From Aplysia californica (lineage: Eukaryota): DNA of 64,000 nt. The position numbers were made by a program, and so were the translations under genes. This document shows positions 43,640 through 48,650 of this stretch, in pieces; positions within the stretch are counted from its first letter, which is position 1; every line of letters starts with the position of its first letter. The stretch is from positions 194,724 to 258,723 of the forward strand of contig NW_004798148.1 in NCBI RefSeq assembly GCF_000002075.1, in the 5' to 3' direction. The notes beneath the pieces were generated by a model. It saw only the letters and a program-made list of their open reading frames with translations. It was not told the DNA's origin and did not search any database.

Positions 43640-43713
43640 CCAGCACATGATGAGAACCCATCTGACACCTCGTATGAGTCCATGTGATTTTACTTGCTAG
43701 TCTCTGATGCTGG
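43640..43713 (+). ncRNA. SNORD60: Box C/D snoRNA, SNORD60 (U60)-like, divergent copy
   Basis: Terminal stem ccagca/tgctgg, C box ATGATGA, guide TCTGACACCTC with D' ATGA, D box CTGA; guide is antisense to 28S GAGGUGUCAGA. Confidence 0.85.
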
Positions 43714-43896
43714 TGTTTTATATAAGGGTCTTTGTGTCACAAAAAGTTCACAAAGTTATAGATACAGGTCGGAATTTTGTGTAATAAAACAAACACACAC
43801 ACACACACACATGTTTCTGCATGTGTGTTGTGTGGACTACATGGCTGATTGAGGTGTTTCTGTTTGTGAGATAGTGCATAGTGCAGACTCCAGGAG

Positions 43897-44072
43897 TGGC
43901 TGGTTGGCGGGTGCTCTGGTGTGGTTTGCTCATTCTTACCTAATCAACATACATCGTTGTGATCTTTCCATTTCCTTTTTTTTTGGTTGGTCACTTTCTT
44001 CTTACACCTTTAATCTTTGGCGCTTACATGACCTAATTGTGTTGCAAGTGCCTTAAAAAACTTTTATAAAAA
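43897..44072 (+). mobile_element. E1 copy upstream of exon 16
   Basis: Match to E1 consensus. Confidence 0.8.
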
Positions 44073-44148
44073 TAATCTAGTTGAGTGCAGGAATGCTCTC
44101 CAGCTAATAAACTTGACCTAATTCTTTGTGTGTGTGTGTGTTGTTCAG

Positions 44149-44407
44149 GTTCATCCAGCAGAAGTTGGAGCGAGCCAGCCCCCAGGAGAAGGCCATGGTG
44201 TTTGGAGAGATCTTGTCTTCCGCGTACTCCTTGATGACGGACGTGTTCGGCAACTACGTCATCCAGAAGTTTTTCGAGTTCGGCTCCCCCGACCAGAAGC
44301 AGACGCTGGCCCAGCGCGTGAGGGGACAGGTGCTGCCCCTGGCCCTGCAGATGTACGGATGCCGGGTCATACAGAAGGCGCTCGAGTCGATCCCACCAGA
44401 CATGCAG
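44149..44407 (+). CDS. pum: Pumilio exon 16, PUF repeats 1-3
   Basis: FIQQKLERA...[13 protein letters not shown]...[12 protein letters not shown]; phase 2/0. Confidence 0.98.
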
Positions 44408-44574
44408 GTGGGTGTTGGGGGGCTGCCTGGATGTGCGACTCGTTTGTGTTGTGTCGGTGTGCTTGTTGACCCTTTTGTTAATTTAAGAAGGAGATTTTAC
44501 CTCAAATTTTAAAAACATTTTACTCTTAATCTGGATTTGTTGGTTCCTGGAACAGTTCACTCAAAGGTGGCCTT

Positions 44575-44750
44575 GTGGGTGGTTGGCGGGTGCTGTGGTG
44601 TGGTTTACTTCTCTTTTTTTCTATCAAACATCTATCGTACTTATCTCCCCTTCCTCTTTTTTATGTTTGTTAGTCTCTTGTAACACCTCTAATCTTCTGG
44701 CGCTCATATGACCTTATGCAGTTGCGAGCTCCATAAAACCTCTATTTTAA
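44575..44750 (+). mobile_element. E1 copy, subfamily b (gcgctc/gagc hairpin)
   Basis: Match to E1 consensus with the variant hairpin. Confidence 0.8.
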
Positions 44751-44810
44751 AAAAAAAGTTGGCCTTGTCGTGTTGAAGTAATTGAGCCCCTGAGGACAGT
44801 TGTAGACCAC

Positions 44811-44885
44811 TCGGCATATGATGAAAACAACTCTGACACCTCTTATGATCAGACGTGATTCTCCTACTCTAAGAACTGATGCTGG
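44811..44885 (+). ncRNA. SNORD60: SNORD60-like C/D snoRNA copy 2
   Basis: C box ATGATGA, TCTGACACCTCTT-ATGA, CTGA, terminal stem. Confidence 0.85.
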
Positions 44886-45451
44886 AGTGTTATTCAATTA
44901 TAGTCCGTTGAGCGTCATGGTTTCTGCACATTTGTTTGATGAATGAAGTACATCTTTGAGAGGAAAGTAGATAAATTCAGAATTTATAAAACAAGATCCG
45001 TATGAGAAGCATCTCACTTTGACTGTTTCTTTCTTCTTCCTAATTCTTCATATGGTGGCTGAAGATGTCTACTCTCACTTATTTTTAACGCACCCCGCTG
45101 TGCATAAACATTGAAGAATGGATTTGCGAATAATAATGAGAACAAGTCCACAAGTGTGACAAGTGTGTTCGAGAGAAATCTTGTACTGCAGGTCTACTTT
45201 GAATAGTGTGAATTTATTGAAAGCAGTAAAATGTGTTTGGGGAGGGGTTGTTACTCAGCCAGTGCCCACCGTCTTGGTCCGCCACATTGGTAAAAAGTCT
45301 TATTATTTGGTTTTGAAAAGTTGGCAGTTATATAACGACTATTTTTTAACAATGCATTTGCCTGGATCGATAACAACAACCCTATATTTGAAAAACATGA
45401 ACAAGGCACAGGCAAGAAACAACAGGGTCGTAGGGTTCCGTTGTAGACCAC

Positions 45452-45526
45452 CCAGCAGGTGATGAAAACAACTCTGACACCTCTTATGATCAGACGTGAT
45501 TCTCCTATTGTAAAAACTGATGCTGG
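45452..45526 (+). ncRNA. SNORD60: SNORD60-like C/D snoRNA copy 3
   Basis: ccagca-GTGATGA...guide...CTGA-tgctgg. Confidence 0.85.
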
Positions 45527-45904
45527 TTTTTTAAAATGATTTTTCTGTAGTACGTTTGAATGCAAAAGAAAGTCCAAAACATCAACACCCTTTCCCTGTT
45601 CTTGAACAAAATAATTGTTTTTACAACTACTTCAAGTGAGAAGAGAAGTTTTTAAAAGGTGTTGAAGAAAACTTATTTTTAGATGAAATACAAAATTAAT
45701 AGTTTGGAAATTCATTTTAGTTCGGATTGATTGGTAGGGGTTGAGGAGGGGGAGATGACTTTGTGTTGGTTTGTCGATTGTTTTGTTTCCACAGTAAATG
45801 GAAAACTTTTATTTAATGAGACGAACCCCAGACAATGCCATAATGTGTTATAGTCAATAGTGTGGCCCTCAGGACAATTTGGAACAAAACGCTAGATACT
45901 TATA

Positions 45905-46090: not shown

Positions 46091-46160
46091 TGAATTCTGA
46101 ATGCAATGTTAAAAATTACTGTTAATATTATAAGAATTGAGAGAACAGTTTATCAATGTC

Positions 46161-46235
46161 CCAGCGTGTGATGAAAACCACTCTGACACCTCTTATGATC
46201 AGACGTGATTCTCCTATTGTAAAAACTGATGCTGG
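46161..46235 (+). ncRNA. SNORD60: SNORD60-like C/D snoRNA copy 4
   Basis: Same boxes, guide and terminal stem as copy 3. Confidence 0.85.
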
Positions 46236-46694
46236 TTTCTTTCTAATTTCCCTTTAGTTAGTTCTCTTGAGTACAAGAGAAAGTCCAACAAAATGTCGAT
46301 GCTCTTCCCTTGAAAAAAGTTATCATTTTTACAAGCATTTCTTGCGAGCGCCGTAAAACCTCTACTAAAAATAAAACTAAAACTAACAGCACTTCCAGTG
46401 AAAGGAGAGGCTTAAAAAGAGTGTCAAAGAAAGACTGATTTTCAGATAGATTAGCAAGTTAGTTTGAAAATTCATTGTAGTTTGGCTGGGAGCTGCTTTG
46501 TGTTGGTTTGTAGGTTTCTTTGCTTTAATGATAAATACCGGTTTAAAAAATCTTAGATGAACTCATTCTGTATCATTCTGGTTGAAGTCCATTGTGTGCC
46601 CTCAGTAGAATTTGGAAAAGACCACTTGATACTTATATGGACACTGCATGCAATGTTAGAAGTAACTGATAATGTTAAAACCATTGTTAACGTC

Positions 46695-46769
46695 CCAGCG
46701 TGTGATGAAAACAACTCTGACACCTCTTATGATCAGACGTGATTCTCCTATTTTAAAAACTGATGCTGG
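46695..46769 (+). ncRNA. SNORD60: SNORD60-like C/D snoRNA copy 5
   Basis: Same boxes, guide and terminal stem as copy 3. Confidence 0.85.
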
Positions 46770-47104
46770 TTTCTTCATAATTGTACTTGAATACTAAAGA
46801 AATTCCCAAACATGAAGAAAGTGTTGGTTTTTACACATTATATTTCTAGTGGGAAGTGGAATAACCTGAAGTTAGATTGATTAGACATTTAGGTGGGTGG
46901 AAGATTCTTTGTTTTGGCTTGTTGATTGTTTTGTTTAAGCAGTAAATTGTAAGTTTTATAACTTATATTAAATGTTATATTAAATGAAAATAAGCCAGAC
47001 AGACAGTGCCATATGTGAAAAGTTGGTAAAGGCACCCTTTCTATTGCTATGGACACTGCCTGAAATGTTAGAAGTAACAGAACCTGAAAATACTTGTTAA
47101 CCTC

Positions 47105-47179
47105 CCAGCATGTGATGAAAACCACTCTGACACCTCTTATGATCAGACGTGATTCTCCTTTTGTAAAAACTGATGCTGG
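47105..47179 (+). ncRNA. SNORD60: SNORD60-like C/D snoRNA copy 6
   Basis: Same boxes, guide and terminal stem as copy 3. Confidence 0.85.
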
Positions 47180-47284
47180 CTTTTACTTGAATACTAAAGA
47201 CAGTCCAAAACATGAAAAAAGTAGAAAGTATTGGATTTTACATGTTATATTTCTAGTGCGAAATTGTTTAAAAAAGTATTGATT

Positions 47285-47811
47285 GGGGGCTCTCGTGGCC
47301 TAGAGGTTAAGGTGTTGGCCTCTCATTCAAAGGTCCCGGGTTCAAATCCGGGTAGTGACGGAAACATTTTCTTCTCTAAATTTGTTTCATTTCTCCTCCT
47401 TTCCTGCTCTCTAGCAATGTTCTGACGTCTGCTTTCGTCTCCTCTTTCTGCCCCCACTCCCTCATCTCCTTTGCCTCCCCCTCCTCTGGGCTTCTGATTC
47501 TTTCTTCAGCCTTTCTACTGCTACTCCTTGGCTTCTTACTGCTGTCTTTCAGCCACACCCCTGATCTTCTGGTAGGAAAGATCTACACCTAGTCTTCTCG
47601 GACAAGGACGAAAAATCTCGCAGGGCTTGTGTGCAAGTTGCGCACGTTAAAGATCCCTTGGTGGTCTAAAATCGATAAGAGTAGGCTTCAGCCGCCACCC
47701 CGGCAAAATTCAAAATTTCCTACCAACTGAAAAAGTTAAATGTGTCTTCCGCGCTCATGTGACCTTATGCAGTTGCGAGCGCGGTAAAACACTTACAAAA
47801 ACAAACAAAAC
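47285..47811 (+). mobile_element. Full-length tRNA-derived SINE with 12-bp target site duplication
   Basis: A box tggcctagagg, B box ggttcaaatcc, CT-rich body, cacgttaaagatccc core, 3' hairpin ccgcgctc...gagcgcgg, A-rich tail; TSD aaagtattgatt at 47273-47284 and 47812-47823. Confidence 0.9.
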
Positions 47812-48099
47812 AAAGTATTGATTAGAAAATTAGTAGTTTGGAAAAATTTTTGTAGTTAGTAGGTTTATTTGGGGGAAGGGGGGTGTGTCTTTGTTTTGGC
47901 TTGTTGATTGTTTTGTTTAAGCAGTAAATTGTAAGTTTTATAACTTACTAAATGAAAGTAACCCAGACAGACAGTGCCATATGTCAAAGGTCCATAGAGT
48001 GCACCTCAGGAAAAGTTGGTAAAGACACCCTTTATATTGCTATGGACACTGTATGCAATGTTAGAAGTAACTGATAACATTAAAACCATTGTTAACGTC

Positions 48100-48174
48100 C
48101 CAGCGTGTGATGAAAACAACTCTGACACCTCTTATGATCAGACGTGATTCTCCTATTTTAAAAACTGATGCTGG
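48100..48174 (+). ncRNA. SNORD60: SNORD60-like C/D snoRNA copy 7
   Basis: Same boxes, guide and terminal stem as copy 3. Confidence 0.85.
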
Positions 48175-48575
48175 TTTCTTCATAATTTGACTTGAATACG
48201 AAAGAAAGTCCCAAACATGAAGAATGTGTTGTTTTTTACTCATTTTCTGAGGGAGAAATGGTTCTTTAAAAGTGTTAAAGAAAATCTGATTTTAGATAGA
48301 TTAGAAAATTAGTAGTTGGAAGATTCTTTGTAGTTTGGGTTTATTTGGGGGTAGAGAGGTGTGTCTTTGTTTTGGCTTGTAGATTGTTTTGTTAAAGCAG
48401 TAAATTGTAAGTTTTATAACTTATTAAATGAAAGTCACCCAGACAGACAGTTCCATGATATGTTAAAAGTCCATAGAGTGCACTCAGGAAAAGTTGGTAA
48501 AGGCACCCTTTATATTGCTATGGACACTGTATGCAATGTTAGAAGTAACAGAACCTGAAAATACTTGTTAACCTC

Positions 48576-48650
48576 CCAGCATGTGATGAAAACCACTCTG
48601 ACACCTCTTATGATCAGACGTGATTCTCCTTTTGTAAAAACTGATGCTGG
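48576..48650 (+). ncRNA. SNORD60: SNORD60-like C/D snoRNA copy 8
   Basis: Same boxes, guide and terminal stem as copy 3. Confidence 0.85.

What the first reader, a model, noticed from the sequence alone, without database searches (positions are those of the whole stretch)
43640..48650. Eight SNORD60-like C/D snoRNAs, seven of them in one intron
Seen: 74-75-nt units with a terminal stem, RTGATGA, an invariant guide TCTGACACCTC, D' ATGA and CTGA. Seven lie in intron 44408-49147 within ~400-700-bp tandem units with diverged spacers; one more divergent copy sits alone in the previous intron. The guide is complementary to 28S (AA)GAGGUGUCAGA, and the +5 rule places methylation on the first G of the GG. 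From recall this is the U60 target (human Gm4340), and the solo copy reads TCTGACACCTCGTATGA as I recall human U60 does. Established: animal C/D snoRNP assembly usually favours one copy near the branch point. Here all copies are over 400 nt from the acceptor, so the terminal stems may allow splicing-independent, polycistronic processing.
Basis: partly seen in the sequence, partly recalled or inferred. Interest (0 to 1): 0.7.

Follow-up and report, generated by a model that had tools for sequence, protein, structure and literature searches.

The report
Seven methylation-guide RNAs in one intron
One intron of a sea hare's Pumilio gene holds seven conserved copies of a small RNA predicted to guide methylation of ribosomal RNA, and other genes of this animal also pack several such guides into single introns, so it likely cuts them apart instead of making one per intron as most animals do.

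Summary
Eight box C/D snoRNA genes of the SNORD60/snR48 clan lie in Pumilio introns; the flanking exon is 100% identical to a protein labelled Aplysia californica. One copy is in intron 42598-44148 and seven are in intron 44408-49147. Their guide pairs 11-13 bp with this genome's own 28S rRNA and points at the G matching yeast Gm2793 and human Gm4370. Four other sequencing runs hold the spacers, and an RNA contig splices straight across the intron. Between duplicated pairs the cores differ at 0 of 150 sites and the flanks at 42 of 415, so several copies look selected. RPL7a and RPL4 introns of this genome also hold 2-3 C/D snoRNAs each. Only 1 of 20 snoRNAs measured here sits at the usual distance from the acceptor, against 10 of 10 relatives in other eukaryote contigs; those here have stronger terminal stems. 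Splicing-independent assembly and cutting between copies is inferred, not shown: no expression data and no cleavage signal were found. This scan noted similar arrays before, in this genome and in octopus-like genomes. New variant of a known arrangement; moderate interest.

The parts
43640..43713 (+). c0, solo SNORD60-like C/D snoRNA gene in intron 42598-44148; box C 43647-43653, guide 43661-43671, D' 43674-43677, D 43704-43707
   Evidence: 441 nt from the acceptor
44811..44885 (+). c1, most divergent array copy; its two stem changes keep pairing as G-U
   Evidence: (30.9 bits)
45452..45526 (+). c2, array copy
46161..46235 (+). c3, array copy
46695..46769 (+). c4, array copy, core identical to c6
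47105..47179 (+). c5, array copy, core identical to c7
48100..48174 (+). c6, array copy
48576..48650 (+). c7, last array copy, 503 nt from the acceptor
44408..49147 (+). Host intron (GT..AG, 4740 nt) between two PUF-domain exons of Pumilio
   Evidence: RNA contig X17 record 1 joins the two exons directly (table 8)
44149..44407 (+). Pumilio coding exon separating the solo copy from the array
   Evidence: PF00806; 100% identical to P0002
49148..49285 (+). Pumilio coding exon after the array
47285..47810 (+). High-copy SINE-like insertion between c5 and c6 (boundaries approximate), with a tRNA-like head
   Evidence: Rfam tRNA 47296-47352, 23 bits, below cut-off; contig depth above 10^6 in X5
46907..46955 (+). 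U/G-rich tract, followed by CAG, 6 nt and GTAAGT; also near 47890-47936 and 48367-48412, and degenerate in two older spacers. Candidate cleavage tract or cryptic micro-exon; role untested

Best explanation
Local tandem duplication put seven SNORD60-clan guide genes into one Pumilio intron, and several copies are likely functional: each would assemble its C/D snoRNP independently of splicing through its terminal stem, and the intron would then be cut between copies and trimmed into separate guides predicted to methylate 28S rRNA at about G3133. Shown: the copies, the single intron, complementarity to the genome's own 28S, and core conservation against spacers. Inferred: expression of each copy, splicing-independent assembly, and endonucleolytic separation. 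The enzyme is unknown; a U-specific EndoU-type cut in the U/G-rich spacer tracts is my guess and is untested.
For: (1) Guide and target: 13-bp (c1-c7) or 11-bp (c0) duplex with the genome's own LSU rRNA; the fifth base before D' faces the first G of GG. Positions 0, +2 and +24 of the target stretch are all G, matching the spacing of yeast Gm2791/2793/2815 and human Gm4370/4392. (2) Selection on several copies: dimer c4-c5 against c6-c7 shows 0 of 150 core and 42 of 415 non-core mismatches, Fisher p=2e-6; c2/c6 3 of 75 against 69 of 317; c3/c4 2 of 75 against 24 of 122. Across seven copies 1 of 35 box and guide columns varies (the purine of box C) against 7 of 30 other columns, p=0.02. c4=c6 and c5=c7, which follows duplication history and not adjacency. 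(3) One intron: an RNA contig and the database protein join the exons directly; acceptor-like sites are not enriched, 1.27 per kb against 0-6.2 in the other 18 introns. (4) Genome-wide habit: RPL7a introns hold 2 and 3 C/D snoRNAs, the latter of two different guides; one RPL4 intron holds 2; the flanking exons are contiguous in the protein. (5) Position and stems: 1 of 20 snoRNAs measured in this genome lies 60-100 nt from an acceptor, median terminal duplex -9.7 kcal/mol; 10 of 10 relatives in NAP-family host genes of metagenome contigs lie at 67-76 nt, one per intron, median -2.6. A review states that long external stems can make assembly splicing-independent (PMC5519232 passage).
Against: No expression data for any copy. 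No conserved hairpin or RNase III-like stem in the spacers: of the 150-nt windows scanned, only two inside or at the edge of the SINE reached z below -2.5. The stems are 6 bp, short for 'long external stems'. In mammals two snoRNAs in one intron give stable sno-lncRNAs, not separate guides (PMC11028025 passages). One comparison gave no core excess: c6 against c7, 4 of 75 versus 23 of 281, p=0.62. About 75 nt upstream of the c4-c7 cores is also well conserved, and spacer relationships are mosaic, so gene conversion has probably acted. The stem and position contrast sets one genome (4 hosts) against 4 loci with the same host gene, so the points are not independent. The HSP70 U14 pair is one per intron.
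Confidence: 0.5

Rival explanations
1. Lottery without an endonuclease: assembly far from the branch point is inefficient, so usually only one motif per lariat is occupied and exonucleases trim through the rest. Extra copies raise the yield, and lariats with two occupied motifs give sno-lncRNAs.
For: It explains selection on every copy, the lack of spacer hairpins and amplification at a poor position, using only the exonuclease pathway described in reviews.
Against: It is wasteful for the RPL7a intron, where both copies of an 18S guide found by the Rfam search lie upstream of a different intact snoRNA. Far-off positions are the norm in this genome, 19 of 20, which suggests assembly there is not inefficient.
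Confidence: 0.25
2. Hidden splicing: cryptic micro-exons or recursive splice sites in the spacers give each copy its own intron in a minor isoform that is degraded.
For: A U/G tract, CAG, 6 nt and GTAAGT lies in three spacers (46949, 47931, 48407). An earlier AI note reports duplicated acceptors between SNORA3 copies in this genome (e1-9595036, unchecked).
Against: The donor is missing in the three older spacers. The acceptor scores are middling, 2.7-3.2 against a median of 4.1 for true acceptors, and not enriched. Low-depth X17 contigs run unspliced across 46906-47058 and 48231-48495, and the main contig skips the whole intron. These sites lie 175 nt or more downstream of each D box.
Confidence: 0.12
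3. Mostly silent duplicates: only c0 and perhaps c7 are processed, and the others are kept alike by recent duplication and gene conversion.
For: Mosaic spacers and conserved near flanks; the c6/c7 comparison shows no core excess; no reads show expression.
Against: Conversion from one functional copy would not give c4=c6 and c5=c7 with 10% flank divergence and many indels. No copy has a broken box or guide, even c1 with 7-8 differences. A SINE and a MITE-like element inserted in spacers, none in cores.
Confidence: 0.11
4. Assembly artefact.
For: No listed contig spans the whole array.
Against: The spacers are diverged, not identical. Contigs of four other runs cover them and run into the cores, for example 44837-45488 in 3 of 4 runs and about 48158-48518 in 4 of 4.
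Confidence: 0.02

Closest known systems
SNORD60/U60 (Rfam RF00271; clan CL00066 with snoR1 and yeast snR48)
   Same: Same D' guide and the same predicted LSU target (human Gm4370, yeast Gm2793).
   Different: 72 against 83 model positions and below the gathering score. Eight copies in a protein-coding Pumilio host, whereas human SNORD60 is listed as mono-intronic in non-coding SNHG19 (PMC11028025 supplement rows). No register for the Gm2791-type site in these copies.
Intronic snoRNA clusters of Drosophila (H/ACA) and rice
   Same: Several snoRNAs in one intron, which must be released from one precursor.
   Different: In Drosophila, C/D snoRNAs follow one per intron and only H/ACA cluster; in silkworm both classes are one per intron (PMC3089462 passages). 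Rice is known to me only from a cited title in that paper. Here the cluster is C/D and made of one family.
Mammalian sno-lncRNAs and the imprinted SNORD114/116 arrays
   Same: Two or more C/D snoRNAs annotated in one intron; tandem paralogues.
   Different: sno-lncRNAs stay joined. The C/D cluster rows I saw were mostly imprinted non-coding hosts. Here the copies are canonical rRNA guides in a coding gene.
Vertebrate PUM1-hosted SNORD103A/B/C
   Same: A Pumilio gene hosting several paralogous C/D snoRNAs.
   Different: A different snoRNA family, each listed as mono-intronic; orthology of the introns was not tested.

Membership tests
Box C/D methylation-guide snoRNA | Box C and box D near the ends, brought together by a terminal stem | tested here: met
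   8 of 8 copies
Box C/D methylation-guide snoRNA | Antisense element of 10 nt or more next to D or D', complementary to the organism's rRNA | tested here: met
   11 or 13 bp with own 28S; no second guide of 10 nt or more before box D
Box C/D methylation-guide snoRNA | Expressed as a stable RNA bound by fibrillarin, with the target methylated | not testable with these tools
   No small-RNA or RiboMeth data; the polyA runs were uninformative
SNORD60 (RF00271) | Score at or above the gathering threshold of 42 bits | tested here: not met
   30.9-37.2 bits. Filed as SNORD60-like, clan CL00066, not as a formal member
SNORD60 (RF00271) | D' guide aimed at the G equivalent to human Gm4370 and yeast Gm2793 | tested here: met
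   +5 position and G spacing 0/+2/+24; equivalence by spacing, not by an alignment to human rRNA
Intronic snoRNA cluster | Two or more snoRNAs share one host intron | tested here: met
   Direct exon junction in the RNA contig and the protein; definition in PMC11028025 supplement methods
Polycistronic, endonuclease-processed cluster (yeast or plant type) | Cleavage signals (RNase III stems) between snoRNAs | tested here: not met
   No conserved spacer hairpin
Polycistronic, endonuclease-processed cluster (yeast or plant type) | Several mature snoRNAs released from one precursor | not testable with these tools
   Needs copy-resolved small-RNA data; selection on copies is only indirect
One-per-intron vertebrate-type C/D snoRNA | Alone in the intron, close upstream of the branch point | tested here: not met
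   441-4268 nt from the acceptor; rule from the PMC5519232 passage

The most novel reading that the evidence does not exclude
Sea hares, and probably molluscs more widely, have dropped the splicing-coupled, one-per-intron rule for C/D snoRNAs. They assemble snoRNPs through terminal stems anywhere in an intron and cut multi-snoRNA introns with an unidentified non-RNase III endonuclease, a plant-like polycistronic intron pathway in an animal that lets guide dosage grow by tandem duplication.
Probability: 0.4. Interest if true: 0.65.

Novelty: new variant of a known kind. Interest (0 to 1): 0.45.

Why it matters
The RNA and its target are ancient and ordinary; the arrangement is what matters. Animal C/D snoRNAs mostly follow one per intron, and two in one mammalian intron give a joined sno-lncRNA. 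Seven selected copies with diagnostic bases, plus a solo copy in the same transcript as an internal control, make this locus a clean test of how an animal frees several C/D snoRNAs from one intron: cutting, lottery or hidden splicing. The contrast in position and stem strength with other eukaryote contigs suggests a lineage-wide change in snoRNP biogenesis.

Tried and rejected
Rfam at gathering level found nothing in the window. A gapped-pattern search of the genome returned 0 although the window holds matches, so pattern nulls are weak; this includes the null for a guide shifted by 2 nt towards the Gm2791-type site. DNA and family searches found no copy outside the window (one hit at E=8 ignored), so no retrocopy evidence of expression. 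No RNA holder was listed on record. Raw polyA runs X21-X23 gave almost no reads on Pumilio exons or on the copies, possibly through the tool's human-likeness filter; this is no evidence either way. A contig of X8 joins 44998 to 45488, which would delete half of c2. I rejected it as a deletion allele because both sides read GATC and other X8 loose ends begin with GATC, as a ligation library gives. SNORD16 was not found in the genome and the control was silent. Pairwise spacer mismatch rates from the multiple alignment are inflated for old spacers, so I used pairwise alignments. Rows dropped: one RPL7a snoRNA whose next exon was unclear and one truncated L015 copy were left out. Of 15 metagenome loci, 8 were chance matches in coding DNA or lacked box D; L017, L021 and L025 were not measured. 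L029 was fetched and not analysed. Hirose 2001 and Huang 2005 were not held. No complex or fold job was run, as none was relevant.
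Full report
Observation. The guide occurs exactly eight times in the window, all on the + strand; 0 of 100 shuffles reach eight even with one mismatch. Each occurrence lies in a 74-75-nt unit with boxes C, D', C'-like and D and a 6-bp terminal stem. Rfam gives SNORD60 as best family for all eight, at 30.9-37.2 bits against a gathering score of 42. 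No further copy was found in the genome, within the limits of those searches.

Host. The flanking exons encode PUF repeats, and one is 100% identical to P0002, labelled Aplysia californica pumilio homolog 2. P0002 maps to 20 exons in the window. The solo copy lies in intron 42598-44148 and seven copies in intron 44408-49147. Contig 1 of run X17 joins the exon ending at 44407 directly to the one starting at 49148 (table 8), so the main transcript removes the array as one intron. Vertebrate PUM1 also hosts C/D snoRNAs, of another family and one per intron, and human SNORD60 sits in SNHG19 (PMC11028025 supplement rows). This fits the mobility of snoRNAs between hosts (PMC3511168 abstract and passages).

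Target. The genome's own LSU rRNA pairs 13 bp with the array copies and 11 bp with the solo copy. The fifth base before D' faces the first G of the GG, about position 3133 of 28S. The G spacing 0/+2/+24 matches yeast Gm2791/2793/2815 (PMC5699541 table passage) and human Gm4370/4392, with SNORD60 listed for Gm4370 (PMC11550049 table passage). No second guide was found before box D.

Is it real? Contigs of four other runs cover the spacers and run into the cores: 44837-45488 in 3 of 4 runs, about 46350-46704 in 4 of 4, and about 48158-48518 in 4 of 4. No listed contig spans the array, as expected where cores share long words. An apparent deletion in X8 is a GATC-GATC junction and was rejected.

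Are the copies selected? The duplicated dimer c4-c5 against c6-c7 differs at 0 of 150 core and 42 of 415 non-core positions (p=2e-6). Two further pairs agree (p about 1e-4 and 4e-4), and one, c6 against c7, does not (p=0.62). No box or guide is broken; 1 of 35 box and guide columns varies, within consensus, against 7 of 30 other columns. Near flanks of c4-c7 are also conserved and the spacers are mosaic, so gene conversion probably contributed. It does not easily give c4=c6 and c5=c7.

Hidden exons? Three spacers carry a U/G tract, CAG, six bases and GTAAGT. The donor is absent from the older spacers, acceptor-like sites are not enriched (1.27 per kb), and low-depth contigs cross two of the sites unspliced. 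The acceptor model was trained on only 19 introns, so this test is weak.

A habit of the genome. I searched four other C/D families; three were found. In RPL7a one intron holds two SNORD53/92-like genes, and the next holds two copies of an 18S guide plus one SNORD53/92-like gene. In RPL4 one intron holds two SNORD18-like genes. The HSP70 U14 pair is one per intron. The flanking exons are contiguous in the protein by PDB matches. Of 20 snoRNAs measured in this genome, 1 lies 60-100 nt from the acceptor, and the median terminal duplex is -9.7 kcal/mol. Ten of 10 SNORD60-clan relatives in NAP-family hosts from metagenome contigs are one per intron at 67-76 nt, with median -2.6. This is one genome against four related loci, so it is a pattern and not a statistical proof. 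It matches the review statement that human C/D snoRNAs prefer a site about 50 nt upstream of the branch point and that long external stems allow splicing-independent assembly (PMC5519232 passage).

Mechanism. Most likely each copy assembles through its stem and the intron is cut between copies, then trimmed (0.5). No spacer hairpin was found, so a yeast-type RNase III signal is not evident. XendoU releases intronic snoRNAs in Xenopus (PMC10557570 passage); the U-rich spacer tracts are candidates only by my inference. The main rival needs no endonuclease: one occupied motif per lariat, with sno-lncRNAs as by-products (0.25). Hidden splicing (0.12), silent duplicates (0.11) and artefact (0.02) follow.

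What is known. Intronic clusters are a recognised class, while animals mostly keep one snoRNA per intron (PMC11028025 section 3 part 1, passages, and part of the supplement). Drosophila clusters only H/ACA snoRNAs (PMC3089462 passages). In the part of that supplement matched by my search terms (file cut, tab-separated rows probably missed), 108 animal rows read intronic cluster C/D against 729 mono-intronic; the four shown were in one non-coding host, two of them named SNORD114. Nine searches listed no paper on mollusc intronic snoRNA clusters; I saw listings only for most, and most subscription papers are not held. Passages of PMC6962438, PMC5932544, PMC8609340 and PMC4758252 added nothing on this point. 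This scan's own unreviewed notes report a SNORA3 array in this genome and C/D arrays in octopus-like genomes, including five SNORD60-like copies in one RPL38 intron. These are leads, not support; they prompted my check of other host genes.

Verdict. Real, SNORD60-like and apparently selected in several copies; a new variant of a known arrangement, probably one instance of a mollusc-wide habit. The processing mechanism is untested. Interest 0.45.

Noticed in passing
window, e.g. 43891-44080, 44571-44765, 49010-49111, 36615-36797: A dispersed repeat of about 180 bp has 27 of 27 window matches on the sense strand, and in 10 of 19 Pumilio introns a copy ends 16-80 nt before the acceptor. Similar sequence lies in sense in HSP70 introns (by eye). 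It may supply or be tolerated near branch points; such strand and position bias is odd for a SINE-like element.
   Followed up: partly
L012, L014, L015, L018 (NAP-family host genes): SNORD60-clan paralogues come in two registers: some have two extra bases before D', which would move the +5 site to the Gm2791-type G. The two targets of yeast snR48 appear split between paralogues.
   Followed up: partly
L027 (G000:C1453, RPL7a): Seven C/D snoRNA genes of three guide types; the last two introns hold two and three of them.
   Followed up: partly
L017:645-714: A single SNORD60-like gene resembling the solo copy lies after an exon with a RanBP2-type zinc finger, so in a different host gene.
   Followed up: no
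L021:3388-4403: Three clan CL00066 copies 390-550 nt apart with no clear coding exon between them; perhaps a non-coding host.
   Followed up: no
window 42608-42946: A 47-nt minisatellite of 7 copies begins 10 nt after the donor of the solo copy's intron; it holds C-box-like words but gave no snoRNA match.
   Followed up: no
window 45904-46091: MITE-like element with 25-nt inverted ends inside the spacer between c2 and c3; high copy by contig depth.
   Followed up: no
window 47285-47810: tRNA-headed SINE-like insertion between c5 and c6; it carries the three strongest decoy acceptors of the intron. Not assigned to a published Aplysia SINE family.
   Followed up: no
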